64,000 nucleotides of DNA. Source: an uncultured virus (IMG/VR IMGVR_UViG_3300020048_000107). Taxonomy: Duplodnaviria; Heunggongvirae; Uroviricota; Caudoviricetes. Made by a program: the position numbers and the translations under genes. Positions 1 through 64,000 of this stretch are shown piece after piece; the first letter of the stretch is position 1; each line of letters begins with the position of its first letter. The DNA lies in the IMG/VR virus record IMGVR_UViG_3300020048_000107; one strand, 5' to 3'. Under the pieces are notes generated by a model. It was given only the letters and a program-made list of their open reading frames with translations, was not told where the DNA came from and searched no databases.

Positions 1-99
1 CGTAAAGTATTTTTCTTTGTGAATTTTGATAAATAATTTAGTTCAACAAGGGAACAATTTAAACGAAATAAATAATTAACATATCTTAAAAACAATTCA

Positions 100-1044
100 A
101 TGAAAGATTATATTGATAAAAACATATCAAAAGAATTAAAAGTTGGTGTATTATTTGCTGACTTTATATTAGAGACTATAAATCGTAAAGCTAAACGTAT
201 GGGTGAAAAGTATAAAAGCAATTATAAAACACTCATATTTCACTTAAATAACTTTTCAAAAGATAACGATAGTATTATTTATACAAATAGTGTAAATGAA
301 GAGTTTTTAGATGATTTCATAATTTATTTAGAAGGTAGAAATTTAAAACAAAACTATATTAAAAATTTATTAGGCTTAATTAAAAATATGGCTAGAAAAG
401 CCGGATCTTATGGTTATATAGTTGATTGTACATATGATGATGTTAGTTTAAATTCAGAAGAATATTCAAATATTTATCTAACCACCAATGAAATTACTCG
501 TATTTATTATTTTAAAGGGTTGTCTAAAAAGAAAGAACGAATTAAAGATTTGTTTGTTATTGGATGTTTGACAGCTTTAAGATATAGCGATTATTCTACG
601 TTAACAAAAGAAAATTTTGTCAATAATTTCATAGTGAAGAAAACTAAAAAAACCGGAAAAAATGTAGTAATTCCTATACACGAATATATCAAAGAGATTT
701 ATGAAAAATATGATGGTGAAATATCTTCTGGATTATGTTTACAGCATTTTAATAGATATATAAAAAGCATTTGTAAACAAATAGGATTTGCAGACAGTAT
801 TTCTCATACTTATACTCGTGGTGGTAAAATAATTACAGATACAAAACCAAAATACGAATTTGTGTCTTCACATACAGCTAGAAGAAGTGCTGCTACTAAT
901 ATGTATTTGACCGGCAGGATGAAGACTTATGAAATTATGTCTCTTACAGGACATACAACTGAAAAAAGTTTCTTTAGATATATTCGTGTAGATCAATAGG
1001 ATATAGTAAACAAAATAGCTAGTGATAGTTATTTCAAAATTTAA
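100..1044 (+). CDS. Tyrosine recombinase / phage integrase family protein
   Basis: Catalytic motifs TALRYSD, SSHTARRS, LTGH and FFRY, plus a SAM-like N-terminal part. One TAG at 997-999; reading through it adds 14 more codons to TAA at 1042-1044. Confidence 0.9.
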
Positions 1045-1089
1045 CAGATATTAGGCGTTCCCAAAACTCTAATACTAGTATTAACAAAT

Positions 1090-1902: not shown

Positions 1903-1937
1903 TATATTAGTGGTTATAAAAACAATTAATATAATTT

Positions 1938-2900
1938 ATGAAAAGAATTGAAGTTTTAAATCTACCTCAAGTATTTGAGGGTTTGAAAAATGCTAAAGGG
2001 TTGGGTTTTGCCTATGCCTTAATGAAAAACAAAAAGATAATAGAAGCAGAAAAAGAGAGTTTAAAAACTACTTTACCTACTTCTGAGGACTATCAGAAAT
2101 TTCTAAAAGAAATGAATGCTCTTATTAAAGATTATTGTGTAGAGCAAACTGGAAACGATCCCATTTTATTAGAATCTGTAGAACTTTTAGAAGGTAAAGA
2201 TAAGATTGAATTTGAAAACGAAGTTAAAAAGCTGCAAACTAGTTACGCAGAAGCCATTTCTGAAAGAAAAGTTAACATAGATGAGTATCAAGCATTCATT
2301 AAAGATGATTCTGATGTAGAATTCTACAGAATAAATGAATCCTACTTACCAGATGAGTTAAGTATGCATGAATTGATAATGTTATCTGAGTTAGTTAACT
2401 TTGAGGAAAGAGAAAAAGAAGCTATTGAAATTACTAAATATGCTTTGTTGACCTACACTAATATTTTTAATCGTATGGTTAATATTAATTCTTTATCTCC
2501 TGCTAATTGTGAAGCTAGAAATAAATGTTTATACAACTTTGTTCTATTTCGTAATGCTCATAAAGTGTTGTATGCTGATCAAGTTATAAAAGATTGGTTA
2601 GTATACGAGAAAGAAAGAAAAGATTTGGCTTCTAAATTTGCTGCAACTGATATTTTTGGTGATGTATTAATTAAACACATAAAAGATACACAAGATGATC
2701 AGTTTGTAATCAAAGATGAAGCTAGTTTTAATAAAGAATTAGTTTTGTTAAATGAGAAATATGAAAAAGAACTAACTGCATTCTATGATTTCTTAAATCA
2801 AAAAATAAATTTAGATATTTGTAAGATCAAACAGGATGAATTACCAGAGAGTATGAATCTGAATGATTTACAAACTTTAGAATTATTCATTAAAAACTAA
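1938..2900 (+). CDS. Hypothetical helical protein with an internal domain duplication
   Basis: Intact 320-aa ORF without TAG; the two halves resemble each other. Confidence 0.8.
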   Translation: MKRIEVLNLPQVFEGLKNAKGLGFAYALMKNKKIIEAEKESLKTTLPTSEDYQKFLKEMNALIKDYCVEQTGNDPILLESVELLEGKDKIEFENEVKKLQTSYAEAISERKVNIDEYQAFIKDDSDVEFYRINESYLPDELSMHELIMLSELVNFEEREKEAIEITKYALLTYTNIFNRMVNINSLSPANCEARNKCLYNFVLFRNAHKVLYADQVIKDWLVYEKERKDLASKFAATDIFGDVLIKHIKDTQDDQFVIKDEASFNKELVLLNEKYEKELTAFYDFLNQKINLDICKIKQDELPESMNLNDLQTLELFIKN

Positions 2901-2902
2901 GA

Positions 2903-2977
2903 GTGGTTAACAAATGCGGATCAGGTAAACCTAAAGGAATGCCTAAACCAAAGACTACTAAACCAAAAGGAAAGTAA
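2903..2977 (+). CDS. Putative small basic peptide (24 aa, K/P/G-rich, VVNKCGSGKPKGMPKPKTTKPKGK)
   Basis: GTG-to-TAA frame that exactly fills the gap between two genes; strongly biased composition. Confidence 0.45.
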   Translation: MVNKCGSGKPKGMPKPKTTKPKGK

Positions 2978-2980
2978 TTT

Positions 2981-3574
2981 ATGAAGAACATTCTAATTCA
3001 ACCATCCTTCACGGATAGAGAGACTCATTCTTTAAATTTATATCTAAACGACTTAAGTAAATTCCCTGTTTTAACTAAAACACAAGAAGTTGAGTTGTTT
3101 AAAGCTTATAAATCAGGGGATAAAAGATAGGAAGAAAAACTAATTACCCATAATCTTAGATTTGTTGTTTCAATAGCAAAATATTATCAGAATATGGGCT
3201 TGTTACTAGAAGATCTTATTGCTGAAGGAAACATTGGCTTAATTAGATAGCTTTCTAAGTATGATCCTTCTATGGAATTGAGATTCATCACATATTAGGT
3301 TTGGTGGATAAAGCAATAGATGATGTATGCATTGTCACTTTACTCACGTCAAATTAGATTACCTCAGAATCGTATCTTAGAATTGGATAGAATCTACAAA
3401 TACATAAACAATTACGAACAAGAACATATGTACATCCCATCCATTGAGGAAATAGCGGAGTATATGCAGATCGATAAACGACAAGTTCTTAATTTTATGG
3501 ATTTAGATCAACCAACAATCTATTTGTTCGATACTATAACAGATGATTTTCAAGTAATAGACATATTATCTTAA
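2981..3574 (+). CDS. Sigma70-family RNA polymerase sigma factor (regions 1.2, 2 and 3 only)
   Basis: SLNLYLNDL (region 1.2), [48 protein letters not shown]. Four in-frame TAGs at 3128, 3248, 3296 and 3317. Confidence 0.92.
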
Positions 3575-3578
3575 AAAA

Positions 3579-3610
3579 TAAAAGCCTTAACGTTTGTTAG
3601 GGCTTTTTTG
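3579..3610. terminator. Intrinsic terminator between convergent genes, probably bidirectional
   Basis: aaaagccttaac-gttt-gttagggctttttt: a hairpin flanked by A and T tracts. Confidence 0.75.
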
Positions 3611-3659
3611 TTTATATCCTATAAGGATTAAGGGCCGCTTCGCGGCATTTTATACAAAT

Positions 3660-3687
3660 AAAAAAGTCCTGATAAACTATCAGGACT
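3660..3687 (-). terminator. Intrinsic terminator of the minus-strand cluster
   Basis: Perfect stem agtcctgata-aac-tatcaggact preceded by an A-run (U-tail on the minus strand), just past the stop at 3695. Confidence 0.75.
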
Positions 3688-3694
3688 CTCGTTG

Positions 3695-3931
3695 TTAATT
3701 AATTGGTTGTTGTTCAACGTGCTGCAATTCTTTACTATGGAACACGGCCACTTGTAATTCTTGATTCTTGTTAAACCACCAACATTTTATTCCTTTTAAA
3801 TGATTCATTTCTGAATCTTTAAAGTATCTGACCTCTCTCCCCTTCACAACCATTATTGGTTTGTTTGGAATATCTAACTTAATAGTAACCAAATCTCCCG
3901 GGAGGAAATAAGTTTTTTCTTCGTTACTCAT
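3695..3931 (-). CDS. DUF2158/YodC-like small protein
   Basis: Pattern F.PGDLV..K...P.MVV....CWWF......F...EL. Confidence 0.65.
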   Translation of the reverse strand: MSNEEKTYFLPGDLVTIKLDIPNKPIMVVKGREVRYFKDSEMNHLKGIKCWWFNKNQELQVAVFHSKELQHVEQQPIN

Positions 3932-4283
3932 TAGTTACATCAATGATATATAAAATGGCTACATCAGGTATTAAAAGTAAACTTGGCATACCCATTGCTA
4001 CTGGTAAGCTAGAGAATGAATCTATTACAACTCTATCACCAACTTTAATATCTAAAGTAACGTCTGCTGCAACCGCTTGAACTACAGCATACTTAATTCT
4101 TTGTTCACCACCTTCTACTATACCATTTTCTTCTTTATCGTAGAGGTTAGTTATGATCTTTGAGTCCGGAATTATGATTCCACTATCTGTTTTTTGTTTT
4201 CTGTAAGGATTGGAGTCTTCGACTTCTACAATCACTTTCCTTGACATAGGTCTTAATGTAATTTTTTCAGACATACTTAACAT
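3924..4283 (-). CDS. GroES-like co-chaperonin
   Basis: LRPMSRKVIV...KTDSGIIIP...AVVQAV...IKVGDRVV matches the Cpn10 signature. Confidence 0.75.
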   Translation of the reverse strand: MLSMSEKITLRPMSRKVIVEVEDSNPYRKQKTDSGIIIPDSKIITNLYDKEENGIVEGGEQRIKYAVVQAVAADVTLDIKVGDRVVIDSFSSLPVAMGMPSLLLIPDVAILYIIDVTNE

Positions 4284-4292
4284 TTATTAATT

Positions 4293-4568
4293 TTACCATT
4301 TACCCTAAGGGCATTTTGCATCTAACACTCGAGTTTTAGCTGACAATCGACAACCACAACCCTTTTTATAACCATCTTTTGCTACATAAGATACTTGATT
4401 TGTTTTGGGATCTAAATATTTCTTAGAATCACACATCATACCGAACATCGTATCTGAAAGTATTGGACAATTTTTACAAATCTATAGTCTTTTCTTAGAA
4501 ATTACTTCTTCACGATTTAATATTTCGTTATAATGTCCTTTGGCTATATCTGTTATTTGATTACCCAT
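4293..4568 (-). CDS. Small Cys-rich (putative metal-binding) protein, 91 aa
   Basis: Missing from the ORF track. Reads MGNQITDIAKGHYNE...RL*ICKNCP...GCGCRLSAKTR...CP*GKW with two TAGs, and fills the gap between its neighbours. Confidence 0.8.
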
Positions 4569-5454
4569 TCTTTAATTTTTTAATATTTAATTTCTTTTTG
4601 TAAGCTTTTAACATTTTTACTATATCTTCTTTTCTATAATCCACATCTATTTCAGTTTCTTTATGATTTCTATCAATATGTATCAGACATAAACGTTTAA
4701 TTTTGAAATCTGGATTTATTTGTTGTAACATCCAGGCATATAAAGATAATTGTACAGTATAATGTTGTAATTTACAATCGTCTAAATGACTTAAAGGATA
4801 AAACATCTTTTTTGATTTCTTTGTAAACTTATCATAGTAAGATTTAGATTCTATACCATTCTCATTTGTTTTGAAATCATATATGTAGATATCATTACCA
4901 TTCTTAATAAGAAGGTCCATCTGACCAGCTATATTCACCATACCATCACTGTAATAAACTAAATATTCCGGTAATACAGCTTTCTCTCTATTCAAATCAA
5001 AGTTATTTCTCTCACAATCAAACACATCGTCGTGTAATAAGAAACCACAATCTTTAGGATTTATCTTTCCGCCCTTATAAAACTTCTCTTCTTTTTGTTT
5101 ATGGATTTCTGTGCCATATTCACTACTAGTTTTACGCTTTAATTCGTAACCATCTAGTATTTCTTGTTTTACAAGTCTATACTCTGTTGGATCCACATAA
5201 GTTTTTACATCAAAGTCTATCTTTTTCTTAGTCAGGAGATATCCTCTTAAATCTCTAAATTCATTACCCATCAACGATTCTAAAGCTTTATAACCACTCC
5301 AGAAATCATCATCAAATTCTTCATGGAAATCCTTAATAAGCGTTGTCACAGAGATATACTTTATACTAGCATCTCGAGTGTTTACATACAAATGGTCTTT
5401 TTCGTAAAAAGTTACTTCGCCATTTACCTTTACATCATTATTTTCTTTCTTCAT
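4561..5454 (-). CDS. PD-(D/E)xK family nuclease (Cas4/RecB-like)
   Basis: H.Y...SVTT, G..IH, E......IAGQMDLL...IYDFKT, Y..QLSLYAWML. Start placed at ATG 5454. Confidence 0.85.
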   Translation of the reverse strand: MKKENNDVKVNGEVTFYEKDHLYVNTRDASIKYISVTTLIKDFHEEFDDDFWSGYKALESLMGNEFRDLRGYLLTKKKIDFDVKTYVDPTEYRLVKQEILDGYELKRKTSSEYGTEIHKQKEEKFYKGGKINPKDCGFLLHDDVFDCERNNFDLNREKAVLPEYLVYYSDGMVNIAGQMDLLIKNGNDIYIYDFKTNENGIESKSYYDKFTKKSKKMFYPLSHLDDCKLQHYTVQLSLYAWMLQQINPDFKIKRLCLIHIDRNHKETEIDVDYRKEDIVKMLKAYKKKLNIKKLKNG

Positions 5455-5480
5455 ACTCACTAATATATTATTTTTATTTA

Positions 5481-5498
5481 TTATATTTGCAAATATAA
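5481..5498. promoter_or_regulatory. Overlapping divergent Bacteroidota-type promoters (TAnnTTTG on both strands)
   Basis: Perfect palindrome ttatatttgcaaatataa between the divergent starts at 5454(-) and 5519(+). Confidence 0.75.
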
Positions 5499-5518
5499 CA
5501 AGAAACAACTTAACGATT

Positions 5519-5971: not shown

Positions 5972-5973
5972 TA

Positions 5974-6396
5974 ATGGCAACTAAAAAAACACCAATAAAA
6001 AAGAAAACCAAAGCTAAAGCTCAATAGACCCCTAGTCAAAATGCTGCTCAAGACGCTGAACAACAAGAATTTGTTATGTGGTTGTAGCAAAGATATGGTT
6101 TACAAGACGAACAATAGTTACAATAGAAAGCAGAAGAATTGGGTGAGGAAGGTATTAAACAAGAGTACATGGCTTTTCAACAAGAGAAAGCATAGCAACA
6201 AGCACAAGCTTTTAGACGTGGTGGTATGCTAGAGCGTTTAGTTAAATTAAGATCGCTTAAGAGTGGTGGTAAAAAAGAAATGCCGGTTAAGAAATTAAAA
6301 ATGAAAGGTATATCTACAGGTACTGCAGAAATCGAAACTATACCAACTAAAAATATTAACATAGATCCTAAACCAATAATTAAGAAAAAGAAATAA
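5974..6396 (+). CDS. Hypothetical crAss-like protein (K/Q/A-rich)
   Basis: Continuous frame through 5 TAGs; its TAA overlaps the next ATG. Confidence 0.75.
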
Positions 6397-6962
6397 TGGA
6401 TTTTTTAAGATTTCAAAACAATCAAGTTATATTAGAACGAGACGAAATATTACTTGTAAAAGAATTTAAGTAGCTATTAGACCCAAAAAGAAATCAATGT
6501 AAAGATGATAAAACTGGAGAACTTGGTTTGAGAGTCATTAAGGAATTGACTTATATTTATTTGTACTTAGATTGGAAGTCTCCTTATTCGGAATATACTG
6601 AACAAGAGAAGAAGGAAGCTGCTAAATTTGATAGTGAATTAACAGACTAGGAATTATTAGACTCTACATTCTTAGAAGCTTGTAGAAAATATCAAGATCT
6701 TCAAGATACTAGAAAGTTAAAATTACTTCGTTCTAGTTATAAAGCTATGGACGAATTAAGAATTTACTTTGAAACTGTCGATTTAACTGAAACAGACAAC
6801 TTTACAGGCAAGCCAATTTATAGTGCTAAGGATGTAATCTCTAATATTTAGAGTTTAGGTAAGGTAGTTGAGGGTTTAGAACAGTTAGAAGAAATAGTTC
6901 GTAAAGAGAAACAACAATCGAAAGGTGTACGCGGAGATTAGGAACCTGGCCTATTTGATTGA
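6396..6962 (+). CDS. Conserved protein upstream of the terminase (terminase small subunit candidate)
   Basis: EILLVKEF...YIYLYLDWKSPY...VRGD*EPGLFD, ending in TGA. Function is inferred from position only. Confidence 0.65.
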
Positions 6963-6980
6963 TCTGATTATCAACAAGTT

Positions 6981-7711: not shown

Positions 7712-9820
7712 ATGATTAAATGGGATGTAAAGATAGGTGACGAGATCAAATACTTTGATCCAGAATTATCTTATGAATTAACACAATACCGTCCAATAAC
7801 AGAAACTAAAGGTTTAGATTTCGATCCGACACCTTTTACTGAAGTTGGTCAATTTAAATTACTTACTGGTAGATACACAACTTTTCCACATGGTGGAAAA
7901 TAGCATAGAGATTTTTGGCAAGAACAACATACAAGATGTATAGAAGGTTATACTGCTAATGGTTTTAGAATTACGGGGGATCATTATTTCTTCCTTAATT
8001 TTTATCAATTACAATAGGTACAAGATGTTGTAGTTACCGGTAGTGGTCGTACAACTGCATTCCCTAGTTTTATATAGTAGCAATATGAATATTATCACTA
8101 TATAGAATTGTAGGAAAGTAGTAAGCTAGACGTGTTAACTTTAAAATCTCGTGGTGTTGGTTGGTCAGAAATTTCAGCTTCTATGGGAGCATCAAAATAT
8201 ACAACTACACCAAAATACATTAGTATCTATACCGCTTTCTATGAAGATTATCTTTTAGGTACAGGGGGTGTAGTTACAAAATGTTGGGACAACTTAGAAT
8301 ATTTAAACACAGAAACAGAAGGAGGTATGCGTCGCTTACGTCAATCTGTAAATACTACAAATAGAAAACGTTAGTCTGTCTTAGATAAAGACAAAACAGA
8401 ACGTGGCCACATGTAGGAAATATCTCTCATCATTACTGATAAACCTCGTAAGTTAAGAGGTACTCGTGTTGACCGTTTATACTTTGAGGAAATTGGTTCT
8501 AACGAACACTCTATTAAATTATGGATTCAATCTTTAGCTTTAGTTTCTGTACAAGGTAATAAATTCGGTACAAGATTAGGATGGGGAACTGGTGGAGACT
8601 CTGGACCTCAATTAGTTGGTCTTGAAAAAATGTTTTTCCACCCAACAGATTACAACATATTACCTTACAAACACAATTGTACAAAGAATGGTGAGTATGT
8701 TTTTTCTTAGTATTTTGTACCTTAGTACTAGTGTTAGGCCGGATTTTTAGATAACAGAGGTGTTACAAAAATGAAAGAAGCAAAAGAACATTTTGTTAAA
8801 GAAAGAAATAAATTAATAAATAACCTCGAAGATTATTTAATCAACTGTTAGGAATATTGTTTTACACCAGAAGAATAGTTATCTCGTCAAGGTGTTAATA
8901 GTTTTAACCAATTAAAATTAGCAGAACAAAGATTAAATATAGAATTACATAAGAAAACAGAAGACGGAGGTCCATTACCAGAAGTTGAAAGAGGCTTCTT
9001 AGATTGGACTCACGATTCGAATGATGATATTAATGGTGTTAAATGGACTAAAGATCCGCGAGGAAACATTTTAGTTTTAGAAAAACCATTAAAGGATGCT
9101 GATGGTGTTGTAGTAAAGAATCTTTATGTAGCTGGAGTTGACTCTATTGACCAAGGTGTCATGGATTCTGTAGTAGGTTAGGATGGTTCTAAATTTTGCA
9201 TTACTGTTAAGAAAAGAACTTTCGGTAATGGCGGGGATAAATATGTTTGTGTATATTTAGATCGTCCTCCGGTAGCTAAAGAAGCTTATGCTATAGCTTA
9301 GAAAATATTGTGGTGGTATGGTTGTAAAGCAAACTTAGAGGATACTAAGATTACATTTAGATAGTATCTTCGTGAACGTAAATGGGATAATAAAATGCTT
9401 ATGAAACGACCATAGTTTGGTTTACAAGATCCTATGACACAACGATTTAAAAAGAACAATAGTGAATTGTGGGGAACTCCTGGATCACCTAAAATGATAG
9501 GTCACGGATTGGAATTAATTACAGACTATATTGAAGATCATTGTCATAAAATATTCTTCATAGAAATGATAGATCAATTACAAAGATATTCTTATGAAAA
9601 TAAAGGAGCCTTTGATATAGTTGCTGCTATGATTATGACTGAAATAGGTGATGAAGATATGTTTAATGTAAAAATAAAAGACATGCAAACAGAAAAACGA
9701 CAACATAAAGATATTGGTTATTATTACGATGATTCTGGAGTGAAGCATTGGGGTGTAATACCTGGTAAATCAAATTCAAATATTAAAGTATGCGTTCCAC
9801 AGATTTGGAGAGTAAATTAA
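7712..9820 (+). CDS. terL: Terminase large subunit (702 aa)
   Basis: Fragments at 7712, 8132 and 9434 are in one frame. ITGDHYFFLN, Walker A LKSRGVGWS, Walker B LYFEEIG, GTGG coupling motif, nuclease YVAGVDSID and FDIVAAM. Confidence 0.93.
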
Positions 9821-20285: not shown

Positions 20286-20309
20286 TTGTTTTTATACTAT
20301 ATTAGTTGT

Positions 20310-51803: not shown

Positions 51804-51814
51804 AAAATAAAAAT

Positions 51815-54800
51815 ATGGCAGAAAATTGTATAGAAATAAACAATAAAAATTTACAAAGTTGGTTATTCTCCAGTTCAAGAAACCAGGATAAAGCTAATAT
51901 AGTAATTGATTATTTCAAACCAAAAGAAGGAGAAACGCCAACCCCTTTTGAGAGTTTTATATAGGCGTTGACAGAAAAGGGTACTCCAAAAAGAACAATT
52001 AACAATTATGTTCAAGGGTACGAATACTTTAAAACTATTGCTGATAAAGCTCCTGTGGAAAATACTTCACAGGAGTCAGCTAGTGATATTAGTACAGATC
52101 TAATTTTAGAAAGTAAACAAACATTTATAGATGATGTATTTACATTCGCTTCAAAACATGAAGGATTAAGTAAGTTATTTAAAGACAAAGACCACATATA
52201 TCAAAAATATAGTTGGTTTATGTCAAAGTTCTTGATATCCCACATGTTTTATAATAACACGCAGACAAAACAAATTAGTAATAGTCAAGAATTAAAAATA
52301 CATTTAGTTGGACTTATTAACTTTTATGCATCTGTTTTGGATCCAGCCAGATTCACAACTAACGATTCGTTAGGAAAAGATGATCCTCGTAAACCGTTCT
52401 TAAAAATAACTTATGATTTTACAAAGAACATTACGATTACATCTAATAAAAGCGATTGGTATTATTTAAATCATTTGTAGAATGAGACATTGAAAAATGC
52501 TAACTTCAACACATTAAAAGATTTAAAGTATGTACCAAAATCAAAAATGGATCCTAATATTAAGAAGTTGGTTGTAGCAGTATCTTATGCTAATTTTAAC
52601 ACAGTTCTACAAGAATACTTACCCGGGGTAATTACTGTCAATAGTAGTTTACCTGGTTTTGATTTTGTTAACATTAACAATGATAACTTATACGTTTTAA
52701 ACGGTAGTAGTTAGGGTAAGGGTTGGCAGACGGAAGGTAAGGTGTTTGATAGCAATTCTAATTTAGCTAAATTGTTATTAAATTCATTTGAAACTGTAAC
52801 AGCATATAAAGATAAAAATGGGAATTTTGCTTTAAACTTTGATAATAATCCCAACTTTTCTGTAGCTATATATTATTATGTTAGTTAGTTTTTATCCAAA
52901 CACATTAACAAACAAAACTATGCTAATGAATTTAATAATTTATTAACTGCATTAATGTAGTTCAATGTGCCTTATAATAACGATAGTTTATTAAGACATT
53001 TAACTAACACTAGACCAGAGACTGTAGGTAGATTCACTTATGATTATATAGATGGTAATGTAGAATTAAAGGAGATCTTTAAAGATACTACTTTATATTC
53101 TGTTGTTGCCACTTTATATTATAACATGGCTACTATAGATGGAGATCCGGTTTTGAATCAATTAAATTTCGATAAATATATATCTGAAGCAGCTTAGAAT
53201 AAAATATCATTAGCTAAAATCTATAAGAAACACGTAGACAGTAGTATGTCTAGTATTCATGATTTGATTTTTGCTACATTACAAGGTACTACCGAGAGGT
53301 TGTATCACGATTTAACTTATGATTTTGACAAAAGAATTTTCTCAAGTAAATCTTTAGCGTAGACTGTAGTAAACAAATCTATATTTGAAGTACAGAAAAT
53401 GCATAGAAATTTAATTAGTCTTAGTGATGAGAGAAGAGATTCTTTATTTCCAGAAAAAGCAGTTGTTCCTGGAGAATCTTTGAGTATACTTGTTAATGGA
53501 GCACCGGTTGAAATTACTGTTGCTAACAAACGTTGGGTTTTACCTTACGATAGTAGAGCTATAAAACAAATTTATGAAATCTTCTATCAATTAACAAATT
53601 TTGATTTAACTCAAGATTTCATGTTAAGAGAAAATCCAGCTTTCAATCTACAAAACATAGTTTCAGTCATTTATGGTATGCTTGCTATCAATGATGATCC
53701 CGATGCTAAGTAGAGATATAGAGAAGAAAATAAAGCGTTAGGTGAAGAAATTTGGAGTAAGTATAGTCCAACAAACAATGTAAATAGTATCTTATATCAA
53801 ATGGGTGCTTAGTATGGTAAGTTGACTGGAGTAATGTCCAAAATGACCATTCTTAATAAAGACGGAAAACAATTACCTACTTTTGGTATGCGTAATATAT
53901 CTAGTAGTTATGATGCTTATTTGTTAGAGGCTTAGGAACAACCATTATTAAAAGGTAATATCTTTACTAAAAATCCAAAGTTATATGTTGGTAGTTCTAT
54001 TAAAAATCAAATAGTAAAAGACGGTAATATCGTTAACGTTAGAGAATCTAATGATAAGGATGCTGCCATCTTCGATATTTATTTTGAATGGTTACAAAAA
54101 CACTTCTACAATGAAAAATTAGTTGAAGGTAACAACTCTATTGGGGATGGTACATTTAATATTCAACCACTTGTACCGGCTGATAAAGTAAATCAAAACG
54201 TAATTAAAATCAACACTGGTGTTAATATAAAATACGATTCTTTTAAAGTTGATCAATTCACCACTAATTTAACAAAAACATTATCGAGTGATCTTCTCAA
54301 TTCCTTACCTACAGATTATCGTGGCGCAACAAGCGAATTGAAAGAAGCTTAGTTCTTTTCTTTAGGTGCTCAACATAAAGCACGTAGAGATAAAATATTA
54401 ACAGCCTATAACAACATCTTATTAGCTAACAATCTACCAATGGTAGATAGTCTTAAAGAATAGTTTGAAGTTACAAAAAATATCATCACTGCTAAAGGCA
54501 CAACTTTAGAAAACGAATTGTTTGTTAACAATCCTGGTGAAAATTTAACAACAGAATTATATTTTTCTACGGTATATAATCCAGATGGCTCAAAAGGTTA
54601 TGCTCTGAACGATACATAGTTGTTCTTTTTTGATTTGTTTGATGTTGAATCTTCTGTAGCTCACGTACCTAACATGGATAAGTTTAGTAAGTATCATAAT
54701 TTGGGTGTGTTTGAGTTTTTATACAAAATGAAAAAACACAACATTGATGCTTCTAGTCCGGAAATAGGATTGTTTCCAAAATCCACTTTCAAAATAGAAA

Positions 54801-57800
54801 ACTTAAGTAAACCTACTAATCGTGTTGAATCTATATTGTAGGATTTAAATTCTATTTTAGGTAAAGACGAGGTATTTGAAAGTTTGTATGCTGAATTGAC
54901 AGAAGCTATTTAGAATGACGATGTTGATTTCTTATATAGTGATGGTTTACAACAAAGAATAAATGATGTTTTATAGAAATCAAGTAAAATCTATCAACAA
55001 TATTACTGGGAAAATTATTTGTTTGGACAAAATTATGAAATGAGTGTTAATGGTCCAATCTATTTACACCCATAGAAAGATTTACCAACGCAAAAAACTC
55101 ATTATAGTGAGATTTTATCTAGGTTAGCTGTATCACAAAAACGAAATGTTGACTACTCTGCCACCGTTATACCATACAACTATGGTTTAAATGGTCCGGC
55201 CAGGGTTAGACAAGTCTATGTCTATAAAGATCTAAAACGAAAAGTATCTAACCCAATGGGGGAAGTAGCTTCTGTAGATACTCATGACGGTGGAGAACTT
55301 ATATTAATGTTACATAGAATATTAGAGAATAATAGTATGTAGGGTTATTAGAATCCTATATTTCACAAACCAATTATACATGGTAGAATGTTGAATTAGA
55401 ATGGAGATTTTGAAGATTCTATGTTGTTTAAATACGCTTCATATTAGTTAACTAGTTAGAAATTAAGGTCTAGCAGAAAGTTACGAAATATGGTTCAATA
55501 CGCTTTGTCTGAACCACTTTAGTTTAGCGATTTAAAAGAATCTGTGTGGGATTTCACAAGAGCCTACAATGGTAAAAGTAATTCTATAGAGTACGGTAAG
55601 TATCAAATTGCTGTAAAAACAGGACTTGGAAACAGGTATAAAGTGTTGTTAAATCTTGCTAAGATAGGTGATAACGATTATTCAGCTACTTGGGAAGACC
55701 AAGATGGTAAAATAACTACCGATAACAACATAGAACTGAATTCGCTTTACGATTTATACAAATTATTAGGTGCAGAACGCACTGTAAAAATAAACAAATA
55801 GAAAGAAATAATAGAGTATAATGAGAACGCTTGGATAGCTTTATAGGATGTATGTTGTAAAGTGGGATTTGAATTAACAGAAGACGTATTAAACAGTTCG
55901 ATAGGTTTAGAATATGCAAGATTATCAGGAGTATCTTTACAGAACTTAAAGAATAATCTGAATAATAACATTAAAAATCAACAAAATATAATACAACCTT
56001 TAAAGTTTTCTTATGTAAGTCAATTTACACCAGAAACATGTATTAAATATGGTTCTGTAATAGGTAATGCTAATAATGATTTTACTGTTAAGGTTAACCC
56101 GGAAGAAGACGATTAGACCTAGACCACGAGAACATTACAAGAATGGAAAGGTTCACACAGAATAATGCGTGTTTATGACATGCTTGGTGGTGTTCAGCAA
56201 GATGCCGAACACGAAGGTGATGAATAGACGGAACCAACACAAATGATAAATGGTGCTTCCCTCGACAATCAATCACCCGAATTCCTAGACTTATATAAAC
56301 ATATAGCTAATTATGTCATTCGTAAAATGACAAAAACATATAGTGGTAATACTTAGTTTGTTTCTTCTCCAGAAAAGATGGAATCTGACGACGATTACTT
56401 TATGACTCATATGCGTCAATTAGCTTTTATTTATGATAAGTTAGAAAAGCAAATATTAAATTCGTCTTATGATAATGGAAATACTGCCGCTGTAGTTTTA
56501 GCTTCTGCTTTAAACTTTTCAAAAGATTTTATAGCTTTAGATAGAAATACCAAAGACGATGATCCAAACAAAATATTACGTGCAAGAGGATTAGCTAGTA
56601 AATTTACAGTTTCTTTAAGTCACCCATCAGTTTACAATATGGTAATCACCGCTCTCGCGGCCGCCAACACTAAATTGGGTATTAGAAGAATGGGTGCTGG
56701 TTCTGCTGCTGTTCAATAGCCTCACCAAGGACATATGTCTTTCTTATAGGTACCTTAGTTGGAATCTATAAATAACAATGTGTCTTAGGATGATGGTGAT
56801 TTTATGCCTTCGAGTTTAGGTAAGGTATTTAATTATGACAATTACACAACAATGACAGCAGATCAATTCTTTGAATATATGGGTGAACATCCAGAATATT
56901 AGGAATTGACCAGAGAATCTAATCGTTATTCTTTAGTTTGGGATATCAACACTGGTGTATCTCGTTGGAACTTAAATCTTTATAATCATTATGTTCTTAC
57001 TACTGCTGATGGTTCAATTGAAGAACTCTACGTTAAAGACATCAATGTTTTAAAATCCTTAAAACAAAGAATTTATAACGGTGAATTCACTAACATAAAA
57101 CAAGACAAACTATCAGGATTTGATTGGTCACACGATCAAGGTAGAGATTTGAAACATATTGATTTTGAAATAACTGTTAATGTTCCCGGAGAATCAGACG
57201 CAACTATCGTTTATAATATTTATGATACTATAGCCAATGAATTCTTGCTTAAATTACAAAAGTTAGATTGGGAAAATCAAGCAGAAAGAAATCAATTAAT
57301 TAAAGAATTCAATACTGTCATTAAACAGAATTCGAACGAGTTAAAAATGTTCACCCAAATCAAATCTATTTTAAATAAAAAGGAGTTTGCAAACATACTT
57401 CGTTCTTTATTAAATGTAGAATACAAACTGATGTCGGAAGGACGAAAATTAATTACCGCTGATGATGAAGCTCTTATTTAGTTTTTGGGAAATGAGATTT
57501 CTGATTTTGGTATCATTCCTGTGGTTAAAGTAAAGAGTGTTGATTCTGAATTAATTATGATGTTGCCGTTTGCCGATAAGTTTAAAATATCTAATATGAA
57601 TCACTTATCAGATATCACGGTAGACTCCATTATGAACAGATTGAACAAACAATATTATGAGGTTGAGGATTTGTTGTTAAAGGATAAGAATGGTAAAAAG
57701 TACAAAATACCTTATTTCTTTCAAGCAGATAATGGTAACATTTATTTAGCTGATGAAAATGTAGGTAGTTCTGGATTAGAAAGTGTTGATCCTTATGTTT

Positions 57801-60800
57801 ATATAGAAGATAACAAGAAATATGTAACTGTAGGCAACAAACAAATCATTGAAATTACTAGTGATTTAGAAGGTAAATTAAGGATTTAGTATACTAAAAA
57901 CAACGAACCAGTATTAGTTCTTTTAACAAGTAATTAGGAGATGAATCCTGTTAAGAGTGATAAAGAAGGAGAATTGATCGACAATTTTAAAACGAACATT
58001 AATGTTACATTTTGGAATGGGTTACAAAAAAACATCAATGAAATTAATTTGTCTGAGAGTACATTTATACAAAACAATCTTGATTCAAGTAATGGTATAT
58101 CATCTTGGTTAGACGCAGAAAATATAACAGAATTCACATCAGAGGAAAAGAAAAAGCAATTAGCTAGAGAAATATATTCTGCTTATCAGATGGTATTACG
58201 TTTTGCATCAACACGTATTCCAGGACAAAGTTATCAATCATTTGCATCTACTAGAATTAGTAATTTCTTACACGGCGAATAGAATGCTGTATACGTAAAT
58301 GACTATACTATATGGTTAACTGGTGGTGACTACGATATTGATAAATTATATAATATAGGATTCAATTTAAGTAAAGGGGGTAAATTTATAGGATGGCATA
58401 GATTTTTTAATGCTTCTTCTTATGAACACTTAAAAGAATCATTAAAATTACCGGGTTAGGACAACACAATTAAAGAGAGTACAAACGACGATGCTGTTGA
58501 CTTAAACAGTCCATAGTATGAAGAAGATGGAATAACAGATCCAGATACAGGTGATGTGTTCGTTAAAACTGTTTCTGGTAAAGATCTCATTTAGATGATC
58601 TTAACTAAAAATGGTAAAATGCACAATCAAATATCTTTAAAGAAATTTAAAGCATTTGTTAAATTATACAATTCACTTGTACAAAAAGGTTATAAAAATG
58701 CAGAATTGACAGAGTTTATTAAAGAGACTTTAAACCATAAAAACGTAACCACATTTGTTGCGGCTGATGAAGGTAAAGCTTTGCAGAATAGAATGATAAC
58801 ACAAATAAGAAGCAACTTATCTGATATTCGAAATGTAGTTCCTACCTATTCTCCAATTAGTGTTGGTGATAGATCTTCTGGTCCAAAGGGTTTAAAGATG
58901 AATTCTGAAAAGTATATTGGTTCACAATTGGGTCACCCAGACGTTCCATTAAAGAGGATAGCTGACGTAAGTAATCAATCCTCAGGAAAGAGTGTCGTAG
59001 GTATCATGGCCGCAGGGTTAAAACTCTACGCTACAATATCTTATGTTGTTGAAGATATGCTTTATAAAAACTAGAGTGTAGAAGAATTAGAATAGATGTT
59101 ATTCAGTCACACTGCAACAATCACTGAAAATGGACAAGTGGTAATTATAAACGTTAGTAATGGTTTTGCTGGTATTAATTATGAAATAAATAAAGATTTG
59201 TATGAACTTTAGTTATCTCAAAAAGGTTTAACACCAGACCAAATTAACGAATTAATTATCGATCATTACAAAAGGGATAGTGTGTAGTTGAATATTAGTT
59301 AGTTATTATCGGCCGCCACTGACAACGGAAAAGAAATGATCTTAGGTATCATCAATTCCGGGAAAGAAACTTAGGGTATATACACATATGCTTTAATGAC
59401 CGGAATGTCTCTAGAAGATGTGGGTGCTTTAATGACAAGTAGAGAAATAGATTTTATAATTAAGAATACCAAACGAAGTATTTTGTTAAACGATCCGTTT
59501 AAGACAATGATAGATGTTGGTAATTATTTTTTAAACCCAATAGACTTAGACACTTTTGTACCATTTGGTAGTAAGTAGACTATTTTAGCTTAGTTAGATT
59601 TGGAAAAGAAGGAAGAGAATTTAGGTTTAGTAAGTATAAAGGATATTGAAAAAGCCATGGAATCAAAATAGTTAATCTTGAAATAGTTGGCTATAAGTAA
59701 CTTAAGCGAAGAAGAACAAGAATACTTTGATGAAGAATGGTCATCTAATTACAGCACAATCATAAATGCTTACACTTTATTACAGAATTATATTAACGCT
59801 AGGAAAGAAGTAGAAGAATTGTTATTAGAAGAAAATAGTAAAAATAGAGTATCTTTATTTTTAACTTTTTTAAATAATGCTTAGTTGTTTGCTTCAACCA
59901 CACAAGTGTTGGGGGCCAATCAAAGAGTAAAACCAAACGATAGAGAATTAATAAAGTTCTATGTTAGTATAGAAGATAGTATTAGAAATTATTTGTTTAG
60001 AGTTGGTTAGAAAACAAAAGGTGGTACTGATACTTATATACTTAACAACAATAATGATTGGTCAGAAGGTACACTGAATCCAGAATTACAAGAATTTTTG
60101 TAGACATTTAATTTATGGAAATTTATGAATTCAACACCTGAGGAAGCACAAAAGGCAATTTAGTTGTTTGATAAAGTAAAAAGTGATCTAAATCCATTAT
60201 AGATTTTTTATCATGCTGAACACTTTAGAGAAATGATCAAAACTGTTTTAATGACGGATGCTATATTGAAAAAACAATCTCTTGTTTATAGGTCGGTTGC
60301 AAAATTTCAAGAGCAAACGTTGTTGAACCACATGAAGAAAAAAGAAAAGACAGCAGTATTATTTAAGAATTAGACTACTGTAGATGTACAAAAGAAAGTA
60401 GTTTTAGAAAGGAACCTTGGTCCAGAAGCATTCACTGTATTAAAAAACATAATGGATGATAAATTTATTGTAGAAAGTCTACACTTATTACAAGGTAGAT
60501 TAAATGCCGAAAAGAAAACAATCTACATAATGTCAGAAGAAGGAGTTCCCAAATAGGTAAACCTGTAGTTACTAAGTGAGGAAAATAATATATTAGGTAG
60601 AAAGGAATTTATTAAATTTATGGAAGAAACATTTATACCAAGATTAAAGTTGGGAAAAATAAATGATGGTCCCAAAGAAACAGTGAATCCAAACATACGT
60701 AATAATGCTTTCATCACGAGTTTACAGATTAAAGATTTTGTTGTACGTAATAAAAGGGGAGAAAGATTCTTAGCTTATGGTGTGGCAAACTTCAAATCTA

Positions 60801-61294
60801 GTGATAACTTGTAGGTTAAATTAAATCAGAACGAGCTTATGATAGCTCTGTATGATTTGGATAATCTAGATGATTCCGAATATAGACCAACACCAAATAG
60901 TAATGGTACTTCTGTTATCGATATGTTATTCTTATATAATATAATATTACATAGAGGTAAGGATGGAGAATATACATTAAGTAGTTTCTTCGATCCAACT
61001 AAATTACCAAGTTCTATAGTTAGTAAATTTTATATGTAGGAAAATTAGGTTAATAATACTATCACCGACGTTTTAAAAGTATCTGAATAGGATTTAATAG
61101 CTAATGGTTTTGATAATGAATTATTACCGAAATTAGAATTGATGTAGAGTAGTAGATTTTCACCGGATTATCGTTATATTAATATGGGAGAAACTACTAC
61201 AGAAGAACAAAAAAGAAAAAGTTTGGATCAAAAATTAAAAACATTATTTGAATCCGGATTTATGGGTCTAAATATAAAATTCGATTGTATATGA
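51815..61294 (+). CDS. Giant virion-packaged two-barrel RNA polymerase catalytic subunit (3159 aa)
   Basis: Sixteen fragments in frame. TRIPGQS and catalytic GGDYDIDK (58328-58342), plus QKRN, HDGG, GK.VVGI.A.GLK, SAATDN.KE. Confidence 0.85.
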
Positions 61295-64000
61295 TATGTA
61301 CAGCTTATATGAGTTCAAATGGGTGGGGTAATCAAATTACCCCACTTTTTCAGATTGAAGTAACAATTGATGGTGACGAGTCTTTAGTTAATGAAATTAA
61401 AGACATGTTGACATCAGATATTCCTTATACTGATTAGATGGATCAACTCGAAAAAACATTCAATCCTAATACGGATGTGAATGGAAATATCGTGTTGACT
61501 AAGGATGGCGCTACGGTGACATTAACCATCAACAAAACTAATTTGTTAGATGGATTAACTGTACAAAATCTATTAGATAAAATAAATATGCCAAATTTAA
61601 ACTTAGATAAAGACACCAATGTTGCTATCTTATTAAAAGAAGACTATCACACACTATATCCAAATTTATATAGTAATGCTGTTTATGATGCTGAAAACAA
61701 AGCTATAGTGGTTGGTGTAACAAGTATTTTTGATATAGATGCTTTAAAAAAATATATAAAAGACCCGGGTGCAAAAGGTGATGAAATGTTAGATAATTAT
61801 TTAAAAGTTATCAAACATGAATTAGCGCACCACAATATAGAGACTAAAGAAGAGTTCTAGAATTACAGAAACATTTAGGCTAATGCAGAGAATTATACAA
61901 GTCAATAGTTACATATTGCAGCATAGATTTAGAATACACCTTACGCGGACTTAAAATTACACTTACAAGGAACTACTAACTATCCAAAATTCTATACTGA
62001 ATTGTTTGCTTGGTAGGAAGCTGATAAAGATTTCAAATCTTTATTGGAAAATAACAAACATTATCAAGATGTTTTGTCCCAATTACCTGAGCAAAAAGAA
62101 ACTCCAACTCGTCCTGAAACAACTGAATTCTTTAATGAGACTGAATTGAATAAGGCTAATATGGGTGTTATCCCTGAAAAGATTGGTAATTTAGGGGTAG
62201 GTGATTTAAAAGCTTATAAAGAATATCTAGATATTGCTTATGGGGAATACATTCCTGTAGACGACAGAAGTAATAATTATACTGCACAAATTCATAGTTT
62301 TCAACCAGGAGAATTAGTTTATATACAATGGACAATTAAAGGTGATGAAAAAAGACCATCTGCAAACTTCATTAAAAAGACTGAACGTTCTGGAAATGAC
62401 ATTGTATTAACAGTTTCTGGTAGACAATATGATGCAAAATAGGTTTATGATAAAACTGGTAAAACAGACAATAGACCTTGGAAAGACAAGATAGTTATTA
62501 TAAAAGCTGATGGTACAATCGAAAGTGAAAAACTTAGAGATAAAGAATCAGATTATAAAGCTAGAATTGTAGCATTTAGAAAGTTTGCTGGTAAGCCGGT
62601 TGGATTTACCAACGATGGTATCGATAGAAACATAACTAGTAAAGAAAAAAACTTGATCAATTCCAATACAAACAATTGGTTCTTCGCTAATGAAAATGCA
62701 AAGAAGGTCGGTAAGTATATGGAAAAAGAACAAGTTACTAAAGTTAAAGCAGAAGAATAGTTGTTAGCTAAAGGAGAACTAAAGAAAATAGACGGAAAGT
62801 ATCCTAAATTCTTAAGTTCCATATTTGGTTAGAGACACGACGAAAAAGACGATATTGGTTTCTATTTTAAAATTGACGATTCCAGTAGCAAAACAGAAGT
62901 CGGAAATAATGTTATTAGTGTTGGGGATAGATTGGTTACTAAAGCTCAAAATAACGAAGCATTAAATGATGCCTCATACAACTTAATAAAGGTTGGTGAC
63001 ATTGTTACATACAAAGAGTGGTCCGACAATAAAAGTAAATTCTATGATGTAGTTGTATTAAAAACATTTAAAGAAGGTTTATTAGTACAAGACATCACTA
63101 ATGGAGAACCATCAGGAGAACCGCACACCATAAGAAGAAAAGATTTGTTTGCTGTATATAGTTTCTTCAATAAAGATTCTGATAGAGAGTCCGGTGTTGT
63201 TACTATTTTAAAAGATTTCAAAGAAATTTCGGATGAGTTATATGCTAACAGACCTACAGCAAAAGAAAGTGCTAAAAAAACAATATTCACATTAAAAGAA
63301 TTATCTGATCCAAAAATCTATAGTTATGACTCTTATAGTTTTAGAAGTTATACTAAAGATAAAGACGATCAATACGCATTAAGTAGAGAAGGTTCTTTTT
63401 TCCATCCTAGTGATGAAACTGTAACTTACATTTATGGAGATCAGAATTTTCCAAGTGAGGAATATCAAAAGTTTGAAAAAGAACTTTCTAAAGTATCTTC
63501 AAAAGTATATAGTGTTTTAAAAGAGAAAGTTAAAAACAACACAAAGGTTAATGTTTACAGTAGAGATTTAGAAGATTTAAATTCAGACGGGAGTTATAGA
63601 AAAGATAGTTTTGGTAATGAGTTAAAAATTGGTCCAATCATAGCAGATTTACTATCTGGTAGAGGTGATCTAAAAAAATTACAACATTATTTGGAAATGT
63701 AGACAGTTAAAAAACATAGACGTGATAAATTGTCTTTGTTAAAATCTGGATCTTATGTTTTATTAAATAAAAGGAAAAAAGAAAAAGGAACATTTGCTAA
63801 GCTAAAAGAAAGACAACCTGTATATGGTGTTGTTCTTGCAAGGTCTAAAGACTTCTTAACTGTTGCTATACCAAACTTACAATGGAATGAAACGTTAGAA
63901 AAATACAACGACTTCGAAGATTTCAAAATCATACAAGTTAATGTAATGGATTTTCGTGAGGATAAAGAGTATGATGTGTCTAAAGTTTTTAACAATATGA
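61291..64000 (+). CDS. Large protein with a zincin-like HExxH motif (runs past the window end)
   Basis: ATG overlaps the previous TGA; KHELAH at about 61813-61830; no in-frame TAA or TGA seen up to the window end. Confidence 0.75.

What the first reader, a model, noticed from the sequence alone, without database searches (positions are those of the whole stretch)
1..64000. Predicted machinery: a tRNA-Ala(CUA) and control of release factor 1, encoded outside this window
Established: alanyl-tRNA synthetase recognises the G3:U70 pair rather than the anticodon, so a tRNA-Ala with a CUA anticodon could be charged by the host enzyme without a new synthetase. Seen: no cloverleaf in the short intergenic gaps here, and TGA still ends genes (6960, 25246, 29821, 35848, 61292). 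Inference: the rest of the genome should carry a CUA tRNA with G3:U70, and possibly an RF2 homologue or an RF1 antagonist.
Basis: inference. Interest (0 to 1): 0.8.

Follow-up and report, generated by a model that had tools for sequence, protein, structure and literature searches.

The report
Alanine-reading TAG phage; its tRNA unseen
This 64-kb piece of an aquatic crAss-like phage reads the stop codon TAG as alanine while its closest relatives read it as glutamine, but the transfer RNA that must do this lies outside the piece and could not be reached, so the predicted machinery stays an inference.

Summary
The window has no tRNA, even with lax settings. All five listed TGA codons end genes (25 TAA, 5 TGA, 0 TAG stops among 30 complete ORFs).

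The premise holds too. TAG is a sense codon: long-ORF cover rises from 28% to 97.5%. It behaves as alanine. Against a standard-code relative, 37 of 164 TAG columns are Ala, and Gln is 47 log-likelihood units worse. The same test calls Gln in 7 related contigs, and in 57 of the 64 family loci that could be typed.

The predicted tRNA-Ala(CUA) could not be checked, because no collection held the rest of this genome. The support is indirect:
- Gln-reading relatives carry their own tRNA(CUA), always 1.8-9.3 kb upstream of an exonuclease gene that lies at 4561-5508 here.
- tRNA(CUA) genes with G3:U70 and A73 exist in unrelated TAG-recoded phages.

The release-factor part is weak: 0 of 4 Ala-type records and 1 of 5 Gln-type relatives carry a release-factor gene.

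This scan has noted TAG=Ala phages before, on other DNA.

The parts
1..64000 (+). Block of crAss-like phage genes read with TAG as a sense codon. It holds 31 + strand ORFs and 358 in-frame TAG codons, against 927 GCN alanine codons.
   Evidence: PHROG matches to terminase, portal, major head protein and a virion protein.
100..1044 (+). Integrase gene with one internal TAG at 997-999. Homology to relatives continues 15 residues past that codon.
   Evidence: The TAG aligns with Glu in 2 of 2 homologues.
1938..2900 (+). ORF of 320 aa with no TAG and no family match. It may be an early gene.
2981..3574 (+). Sigma-70-like factor with TAG codons at 3128, 3248, 3296 and 3317, in and near region 2.
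   Evidence: Against RpoS (7vf9_F) the four TAGs align with G, A, A and T.
3924..4283 (-). GroES-like gene with no TAG.
4561..5508 (-). Exonuclease gene with no TAG, used as the synteny anchor. In relatives the tRNA(CUA) always lies upstream of this gene. Here the gene is inverted relative to the late genes.
6396..6962 (+). Conserved gene just before the terminase large subunit (small-terminase position). It has 4 TAG codons and ends in TGA at 6960.
7712..9820 (+). Terminase large subunit, 17 TAG codons.
10093..12354 (+). Portal protein, 12 TAG codons.
18781..20199 (+). Major head protein. It has 1 TAG, which lies before the Met codon at 18817, and none after it.
25246..25248 (+). TGA stop that overlaps the next gene's ATG (ATGA).
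29821..29823 (+). TGA stop that overlaps the next gene's ATG (ATGA).
35848..35850 (+). TGA stop.
61292..61294 (+). TGA stop of the 3159-aa protein.
37386..61294 (+). Four very large late proteins (1469, 642, 2700 and 3159 aa) that together hold 174 TAG codons.
3575..3700 (.). Terminator-like hairpins between convergent genes. This is the only spot with weak Rfam matches, and it holds no tRNA.

Best explanation
The window is the packaging, virion and giant-protein module of an aquatic crAss-like phage. Its genes use TAG as an alanine codon for about 28% of alanine sites. TAA and TGA remain stops.

Shown:
- TAG is sense and aligns with alanine.
- The window has no tRNA, release-factor, synthetase or tRNA-modifying gene that the libraries recognise.

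Inferred:
- The phage carries, outside the window, its own tRNA with anticodon CUA and alanine identity (G3:U70, A73). The host's alanyl-tRNA synthetase charges it without reading the anticodon.
- By synteny the gene most likely lies within about 5 kb upstream of window position 1.
- The tRNA outcompetes host release factor 1 by abundance. No dedicated release-factor gene is needed.
- Genes without TAG (1938-2900, 3924-4283, 4561-5508) can be made before the tRNA accumulates.
For: TAG is sense:
- ORF cover rises from 0.278 to 0.975.

TAG means Ala:
- Against the standard-code relative MT835470.1, 37 of 164 informative TAG columns are Ala. In log-likelihood, Ser is -22.9, Thr -33.3 and Gln -47.1 relative to Ala (a similar result).
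- The window's Ala share of 4.60% plus its TAG share of 1.76% equals the relative's Ala share of 6.37%.
- The lineage mate L001 also types as Ala, with 11 of 44 columns.
- Window TAG sites align in L001 with TAG in 20, GCN in 13 and Gln in 2 of 70.
- Against four Gln-type relatives, window TAG sites meet Ala in 32/109, 21/93, 28/135 and 17/63. The relatives' own TAG sites meet window Gln in 32/141, 17/85, 7/43 and 11/51.

Control for the method:
- It calls Gln in 7 of 7 related contigs.
- It calls Gln in 57 of 64 typable loci out of 80, and Ala only in the lineage mate.

Relatives carry their own suppressor tRNA:
- 4 of 5 long contigs have a tRNA(CUA).
- 47 of 80 family loci have one.
- All 63 such genes lie 1.8-9.3 kb upstream of the exonuclease gene, with a median of 4.5 kb.

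Ala-type suppressor tRNAs exist in nature:
- tRNA(CUA) genes with G1-G3, U70 and A73 occur in 4 IMG/VR contigs, as 3 distinct sequences.
- One of these contigs is Aeromonas phage AhSzw-1. The identical tRNA is in 5 cultured Aeromonas phages.
- AhSzw-1 types as TAG=Ala, with 77 of 338 columns Ala, Ser at -66 and Gln at -85.
- AhSzw-1 is a complete genome and has no release-factor domain gene.
Against: The tRNA itself was not seen.
- In the same phage family, 0 of 63 tRNA(CUA) genes have G3:U70.
- The relatives' tRNA sets (Gly, Cys, Met, Asn, Asp, Thr, Glu, Arg, Lys, Pro, Tyr, His, Ser, Trp, Phe, Gln, Leu) include no tRNA-Ala.
- The lineage mate's 18.6-kb contig has no tRNA, and it starts inside the exonuclease gene.
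- The Ala-type suppressors found are all in unrelated phages. None of their loci, tRNA plus up to 10 kb each side, matches a window protein at E<=1e-5, and the head protein finds nothing in the two whole records searched.
- The exonuclease is inverted here, so the argument from synteny is loose.

Some single sites do not say Ala.
- The integrase TAG meets Glu in 2 of 2 homologues.
- Two of the 4 sigma-factor TAGs meet G and T in RpoS.

In AhSzw-1, Ala plus TAG is 9.9% of residues against 7.6% Ala in its relative, so the composition match is less neat there.
Confidence: 0.6

Rival explanations
1. The phage does carry a tRNA(CUA), but it is built on the family's glutamine-like scaffold (U1:A72, A73) and not on a tRNA-Ala body. 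It would have become an alanine acceptor through a G3:U70 pair or through other changes in the acceptor stem.
For: All 63 family tRNA(CUA) genes share the U1 scaffold, and 62 of 63 have A at the discriminator position. Some phage tRNAs in these contigs have G3:C70, for example the tRNA-Gln(UUG) of G002, which is one transition away from G3:U70. The relatives carry no tRNA-Ala that could be duplicated.
Against: A pattern scan of IMG/VR for this scaffold with U70 gave only one match, and ARAGORN does not call it a tRNA. The family's tRNA(CUA) genes mostly have C3:G70, which needs two changes. The Ala-type suppressors actually found start with G1-G4.
Confidence: 0.15
2. The suppressor tRNA is not the phage's own. 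The host, or another element in the host, supplies a tRNA that reads TAG as alanine.
For: No tRNA was found in 64 kb of this phage or in 18.6 kb of its lineage mate. One Ala-type suppressor sits in a record that IMG/VR classes as a provirus, next to a tmRNA gene.
Against: Gln-type relatives carry their own tRNA(CUA) in 4 of 5 long contigs and in 47 of 80 loci. AhSzw-1 carries its own, and by my recall its host, Aeromonas hydrophila, is not known to use a changed code. By recall, no bacterium is known to read TAG as a sense codon genome-wide. I found no report of one, but those searches were aimed at phages.
Confidence: 0.1
3. TAG is read through, but not cleanly as alanine. The inserted residue could be mixed, or be another small residue such as Ser or Thr, and alanine would only be the nearest fit.
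For: Ala fills 23% of TAG columns, while true Ala sites are conserved at 32%. Ser is the next-best model. Some single sites meet E, G or T.
Against: Ser is worse than Ala by 18 to 23 log-likelihood units and Thr by 33. Ala plus TAG matches the relative's Ala share to two decimals. GCN is the commonest partner other than TAG itself in the lineage mate and the commonest in all four Gln-type relatives.
Confidence: 0.08
4. The window uses the published code 15, with TAG read as glutamine, like other recoded crAss-like phages.
For: Nearly all relatives do so: 57 of 64 typable loci. Ten of 164 window TAG columns meet Gln.
Against: Gln is 47 log-likelihood units worse than Ala for the window. The same test recovers Gln in every Gln-type relative. 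TAG-TAG pairs are not among the seven commonest partners in any of the four comparisons with Gln-type relatives.
Confidence: 0.02

Closest known systems
TAG-to-Gln (table 15) crAss-like and other gut phages with their own suppressor tRNA. Sources: Borges et al. preprint 10.1101/2021.08.26.457843, passages read; PMC11210395, passages read; Yutin et al. PMC7886860, search listing and start of abstract only.
   Same: Same phage order and the same gene layout. TAG is a sense codon concentrated in late genes, and TAA and TGA are kept as stops. Relatives carry a phage tRNA(CUA) upstream of the packaging genes.
   Different: TAG aligns with alanine here, not glutamine. The family's Gln-like tRNA(CUA), which has no G3:U70 in 0 of 63 cases, cannot explain that. 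This lineage comes from aquatic samples.
Aeromonas phage AhSzw-1 and its four cultured relatives (T5-like, genus Shenzhenvirus), identified here.
   Same: TAG is sense and types as alanine by the same test. These phages show that the predicted device exists: a tRNA(CUA) with G3:U70, A73 and an encoded CCA end. They have no release-factor gene.
   Different: An unrelated phage family with 44% GC. The tRNA is seen there and not here. The GenBank records label it as nothing, 'hypothetical protein', tRNA-TERM, tRNA-Pyl or tRNA-OTHER, and they split recoded genes into fragments.
Alanine identity through G3:U70, and alanine-inserting amber suppressors made in the laboratory (Hou and Schimmel 1988; McClain and Foss 1988; both recalled, not read here).
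   Same: The same logic: the synthetase ignores the anticodon, so a CUA anticodon on an alanine acceptor stem inserts alanine at TAG.
   Different: Those are engineered or selected suppressors in cells that still use TAG as a stop. Here a natural genome depends on the reading at 358 sites in 64 kb.
Pachysolen tannophilus, where CUG is read as Ala through tRNA-Ala(CAG)
   Same: A codon captured by an alanine tRNA with a changed anticodon.
   Different: That is a sense codon in a yeast nucleus, not a stop codon in a phage.
RF2 genes in TAG-recoded Lak and Agate phages (Borges preprint, passage read).
   Same: One Gln-type relative, G004:C109, has a 369-aa RF2-like gene with SPY and GGQ motifs.
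   Different: None is present in the window, and none in 4 of 4 records that carry an Ala-type suppressor.

Membership tests
Crassvirales (crAss-like phages) | Homologous terminase, portal and major head proteins, with shared gene order. | tested here: met
   The terminase matches crAss-like records (136 records). PHROG families for terminase, portal and head protein match. Synteny holds with 117-186 kb relatives. Pfam CrAss_Ring_1 scores 26.7 bits against a cut-off of 27, just below it.
Table 15 phages (TAG read as Gln) | TAG is a sense codon. | tested here: met
Table 15 phages (TAG read as Gln) | TAG sites align with glutamine in standard-code relatives. | tested here: not met
   Ala in 37 and Gln in 10 of 164 columns. 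Gln is 47.1 log-likelihood units worse.
Table 15 phages (TAG read as Gln) | A glutamine-type tRNA(CUA) in the genome. | not testable with these tools
   The rest of the genome is not held.
TAG-to-Ala phages with tRNA-Ala(CUA) (AhSzw-1 type; earlier scan notes) | TAG is sense and aligns with alanine. | tested here: met
TAG-to-Ala phages with tRNA-Ala(CUA) (AhSzw-1 type; earlier scan notes) | A tRNA with anticodon CUA, G3:U70 and A73 in the same genome. | not testable with these tools
   None in the window and none in the lineage mate's contig. The remainder of the genome is unavailable.
Recoded phages with a 'code change module' (suppressor tRNA plus release factor and/or synthetase) | A release-factor or aminoacyl-tRNA synthetase gene. 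| tested here: not met
   For the window only. No such PHROG family among 33 ORFs and no such Pfam family among 18 ORFs. The 15 ORFs not sent to Pfam had only the PHROG scan. Genes outside the window could not be tested.

The most novel reading that the evidence does not exclude
Within one crAss-like subfamily the reassigned stop codon TAG has two meanings: glutamine in most members and alanine in this aquatic lineage. The alanine meaning, which is in no NCBI table, would be set by a single phage tRNA gene of alanine identity and no release-factor gene. That tRNA may belong to a mobile tRNA(CUA) family. The copies in a T5-like Aeromonas phage and in a provirus record resemble each other more than either resembles its neighbouring tRNA-Ala(UGC). 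If so, a phage's genetic code can be swapped by exchanging one small gene.
Probability: 0.5. Interest if true: 0.85.

Novelty: new variant of a known kind. Interest (0 to 1): 0.7.

Why it matters
Published phage recodings give TAG as glutamine and TGA as tryptophan (passages). Annotation pipelines translate every TAG-recoded phage with table 15. If TAG means alanine here, table 15 mistranslates about 1.8% of residues in this phage.

Two meanings of TAG among close relatives would show that the meaning of a captured stop codon depends on the identity of one tRNA and is not frozen.

The Aeromonas phages found along the way are cultured. Their GenBank records split recoded genes into fragments. 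They offer a direct bench system for testing TAG-to-alanine reading, which this uncultured phage does not.

Tried and rejected
Routes to the rest of this genome:
- No whole genome is held for the window.
- Exact-match scans of IMG/VR with both window ends found nothing.
- An IMG/VR scan with the terminase found no relative.
- A metagenome scan with the integrase found 6 loci that share only the integrase at 58-68% identity and are otherwise unrelated.
- The genome-collection scan gave only Gln-type relatives.

Searches for the tRNA:
- A pattern for a Gln-type scaffold with U70 gave one match that ARAGORN does not call a tRNA.
- Of the 9 loci from the G1-G3/U70 pattern, 5 were not CUA suppressors. 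ARAGORN reads the anticodon as UCU in three and as a 4-base anticodon in one (L068 has the same sequence).
- The stricter pattern also hit two 460-kb contigs whose tRNA(CUA) has A3:U70. These are not alanine type.
- A short-motif genome search was uninformative.

Sequencing runs:
- Two aquatic runs hold 0.93 and 0.91 of the window's sampled words.
- I laid four runs on the provirus tRNA(CUA). This gave only partial pieces under 95% alike, and no letters at the anticodon were reported. No verdict either way.

Other tests:
- I tried to type TAG in the provirus record G007, but the one protein searched had only 3 weak phage homologues. It was left untyped.
The GpC odds ratio is 0.84 in the window and 0.77 in its lineage mate, against 1.0-1.41 in relatives. 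AhSzw-1 is at 1.06, and replacing GCN codons by TAG lowers GpC by itself. This is ambiguous.
- Codon context as a defence against release factor 1. The base after TAG does not differ from the base after GCN (chi-square p=0.21). True stops are followed by T in 20 of 30 cases.
Full report
**What the window is.** The 64 kb have about 31% G+C and are almost wholly coding on the + strand once TAG is read as sense. Cover by ORFs of 150 aa or more is 0.278 under table 11, 0.975 with TAG as sense and 0.318 with TGA as sense (ORF lists). PHROG matches identify these genes:
- integrase (100-1044)
- sigma-70-like factor (2981-3574)
- GroES-like gene (3924-4283, - strand)
- exonuclease (4561-5508, - strand)
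- two GIY-YIG homing endonucleases
- terminase large subunit (7712-9820)
- portal (10093-12354)
- major head protein (18781-20199)
- a virion protein

Four giant proteins follow at 37386-61294. The terminase finds crAss-like phages (136 records). The best is MT835470.1, a 117-kb record at 47.5% identity, and it uses the standard code. Two aquatic metagenome runs hold 0.93 and 0.91 of the window's sampled words.

**Checking the observation.** No tRNA is present.
- ARAGORN finds none. It also finds none with introns allowed or at a 90% threshold. At 80% it gives 25 low-grade calls, none with a CUA anticodon.
- Rfam gives no tRNA match at E<=1 over the window or at E<=10 over 1-6400.
- The two largest gaps near the left end hold terminator-like hairpins.
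- The five named TGA codons are there and end ORFs.
- The 30 complete + strand ORFs end in TAA 25 times, TGA 5 times and TAG never.
- No release-factor, synthetase or tRNA-modifying family was found among 33 ORFs in PHROGs or 18 ORFs in Pfam.

**What TAG means.** I translated the window with X at TAG and aligned it to the standard-code relative. For each candidate amino acid I scored the residues opposite X with the substitution frequencies seen in the same alignments.
- Of 164 informative columns, 37 are Ala, 16 Ser and 10 Gln.
- Ala is the best model. Ser is 22.9, Thr 33.3 and Gln 47.1 log-likelihood units worse (one search gave 38 of 166, with Ser at -18.2 and Gln at -47.7).
- The window's Ala share (4.60%) plus its TAG share (1.76%) equals the relative's Ala share (6.37%).
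- The only close lineage mate I could find is an 18.6-kb IMG/VR contig with 82% head-protein identity. It also types as Ala, with 11 of 44 columns.
- Opposite 70 window TAG codons, that contig has TAG 20 times, GCN 13, Thr 7, Ser 6 and Gln 2.

The control is the strongest part. Seven related contigs from the genome collection (head protein 49-56% identical) are also TAG-recoded. The same test types all seven as Gln, with margins of 19 to 85 units. In direct pairwise comparison with four of them, window TAG sites meet Ala (32/109, 21/93, 28/135, 17/63). The relatives' TAG sites meet window Gln (32/141, 17/85, 7/43, 11/51), although in the third comparison Lys, at 8, edges out Gln. TAG-TAG pairs are not among the seven commonest partners.

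A wider survey used 80 IMG/VR loci recovered through the exonuclease. Of these, 64 had at least 10 informative columns. They typed as 57 Gln, 1 Ala (the lineage mate), 5 weakly Leu and 1 weakly Trp.

Some results point less clearly to Ala.
- In the sigma factor, the four TAGs meet G, A, A and T in RpoS.
- The integrase TAG meets Glu in 2 of 2 homologues.
- Ala fills 23% of TAG columns, while true Ala sites are conserved at 32%.

**The predicted tRNA.** I could not test it directly.
- No whole genome is held.
- The window's ends have no exact match in IMG/VR.
- The metagenome scan returned only unrelated contigs that share the integrase.
- The lineage mate's contig has no tRNA and begins inside the exonuclease gene.

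Three indirect lines bear on the prediction.

First, relatives carry their own suppressor tRNA. Four of 5 long relative contigs have a tRNA(CUA), as do 47 of 80 family loci, with 63 genes in all. All 63 lie upstream of the exonuclease start, by 1.8 to 9.3 kb with a median of 4.5 kb. The window's exonuclease sits at 4561-5508 and is inverted. If the neighbourhood is otherwise kept, about half of that distance range falls left of position 1. The half that falls inside the window is empty.

Second, these family tRNAs are glutamine-like. They resemble the phages' own tRNA-Gln(UUG), and 0 of 63 have G3:U70. They therefore cannot explain alanine, and the Ala lineage needs a different tRNA or a changed one.

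Third, Ala-type suppressors exist. Two pattern scans of IMG/VR for a CUA anticodon with G1-G3, U70, C71, C72 and A73 found four contigs with three distinct real tRNAs.
- The loci around two of them, G007 and G008, are clearly TAG-recoded: cover goes from 0.42 to 0.82 and from 0.26 to 0.73. A tRNA-Ala(UGC) gene sits close beside the tRNA(CUA) in both.
- G008 is Aeromonas phage AhSzw-1, a complete 115,739-bp T5-like genome.
- The identical tRNA is in five cultured Aeromonas phages. Their records label it as nothing, 'hypothetical protein', tRNA-TERM, tRNA-Pyl or tRNA-OTHER.
- The AhSzw-1 GenBank record annotates only a 465-bp piece of its 2.9-kb Pb3 gene.
- Against a standard-code T5-like phage, AhSzw-1 types as TAG=Ala: 77 of 338 columns, with Ser at -66 and Gln at -85. 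Its Ala plus TAG share (9.9%) overshoots the relative's Ala share (7.6%).
- None of the suppressor-bearing loci matches a window protein, and the head protein finds nothing in the two whole records searched.

**Release factor.** A release-factor domain gene lies on 1 of 5 Gln-type relative contigs (G004:C109). It is 369 aa long with SPY and GGQ motifs, so it is RF2-like. None lies on the 4 records that carry Ala-type suppressors, including the complete AhSzw-1 genome. The base after TAG is distributed as after GCN codons (p=0.21), while 20 of 30 true stops are followed by T. So TAG is treated as an ordinary sense codon, and nothing here points to a dedicated answer to release factor 1.

**Literature.** Passages in PMC11210395 and in the Borges preprint name only TAG to Gln and TGA to Trp for phages, and they report RF2 in some TAG-recoded Lak and Agate phages. 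'Alanine' occurs 0 times in either main text. Three full-text searches returned no paper reporting natural TAG-to-alanine reading in a phage. The paper on the sister phage Akh-2 mentions 31 tRNAs and never mentions suppressor, amber or stop codon. The library holds open-access papers and bioRxiv only. I did not read the supplements of these papers, and Table S2 of the preprint is closed. The rule that G3:U70 sets alanine identity is recalled, not read here.

**Earlier notes of this scan.** Four notes on other genomes already describe phage tRNA-Ala(CUA) genes and TAG read as alanine. One says that cultured Aeromonas phages carry a sister tRNA, and one describes a cluster of tRNA-Ala(UGC), tRNA-Ala(CUA) and tmRNA. 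I reached AhSzw-1 independently, before reading them. So the phenomenon is not new to the scan. What is new here is a crAss-like, aquatic lineage of this kind set among glutamine-reading relatives.

**Verdict.** The predicted tRNA is plausible and has natural precedents, but it was not seen for this genome. The release-factor component is unsupported.

Noticed in passing
L023 14791-14861 and L025 16677-16747 (contigs G002:C1 and G003:C406); six 'tta' anticodons among the 80 family loci: TAG-to-Gln relatives also carry a tRNA with anticodon UUA, which would read TAA. This is beside their tRNA(CUA), although TAA appears to remain their main stop codon.
   Followed up: no
L058 9994-10068 = MG676225.1 60691-60765, and records H62-H68: Five cultured Aeromonas phages (AhSzw-1, AhSzq-1, Akh-2, vB_AdhS_TS3, AhP_Mru1) share an identical tRNA(CUA) with G3:U70 and A73. 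AhSzw-1 reads TAG as alanine by comparison with a standard-code relative. Its GenBank record annotates gene fragments only.
   Followed up: partly
L061 9746-10435 (G007, a 135-kb record that IMG/VR classes as a provirus): tRNA-Ala(UGC), tRNA(CUA) with G3:U70 and a tmRNA lie side by side in a TAG-recoded record whose GpC odds ratio is 0.66.
   Followed up: partly
L063 and L065, 10001-10076 (G010 and G009): A third tRNA(CUA) with G3:U70 sits in 35% G+C contigs. There, reading TGA as sense raises ORF cover more (0.51 to 0.78) than reading TAG as sense does (0.51 to 0.62). These contigs may have two reassigned stops.
   Followed up: no
A2 and hits H69-H91: The AhSzw-1 and G007 suppressors resemble each other more than either resembles its neighbouring tRNA-Ala(UGC). 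Their first 61 bases are 84-87% identical to phage genes mostly annotated as tRNA-Trp. This suggests a tRNA-Trp-like body (CCA to CUA is one change) carrying an alanine acceptor stem.
   Followed up: no
L046 4091-5638 (G005:C92): The exonuclease homologue carries an insertion of about 210 aa at a conserved motif. The window and G002 lack it. It looks like an intein.
   Followed up: no
G004:C109, G005:C92, G005:C93 and G006:C1; window 20286-21011: The head-protein genes of several relatives are split into 2-3 pieces 1-2 kb apart. In the window a TAG-free GIY-YIG homing endonuclease sits directly after the head-protein gene. This fits mobile insertions at this locus.
   Followed up: no
L052 and L053 (metagenome contigs of about 87 kb): These contigs share only the integrase with the window (68% identity). 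Their ORF cover rises from 0.75 to 0.91 if TGA is read as sense, so they may use table 4.
   Followed up: no
L115, L118, L122, L123, L124: In five family loci that look standard-coded, the few in-frame TAG columns (12-20) weakly favour Leu, by margins of 1.9-5.4 units. This is probably noise from spurious ORFs.
   Followed up: no
window 1-64000 and L001: The GpC dinucleotide is under-represented in the Ala lineage (odds ratio 0.84 and 0.77) against 1.0-1.41 in Gln-type and standard-code relatives. Cause and effect cannot be separated, because swapping GCN for TAG lowers GpC by itself.
   Followed up: partly
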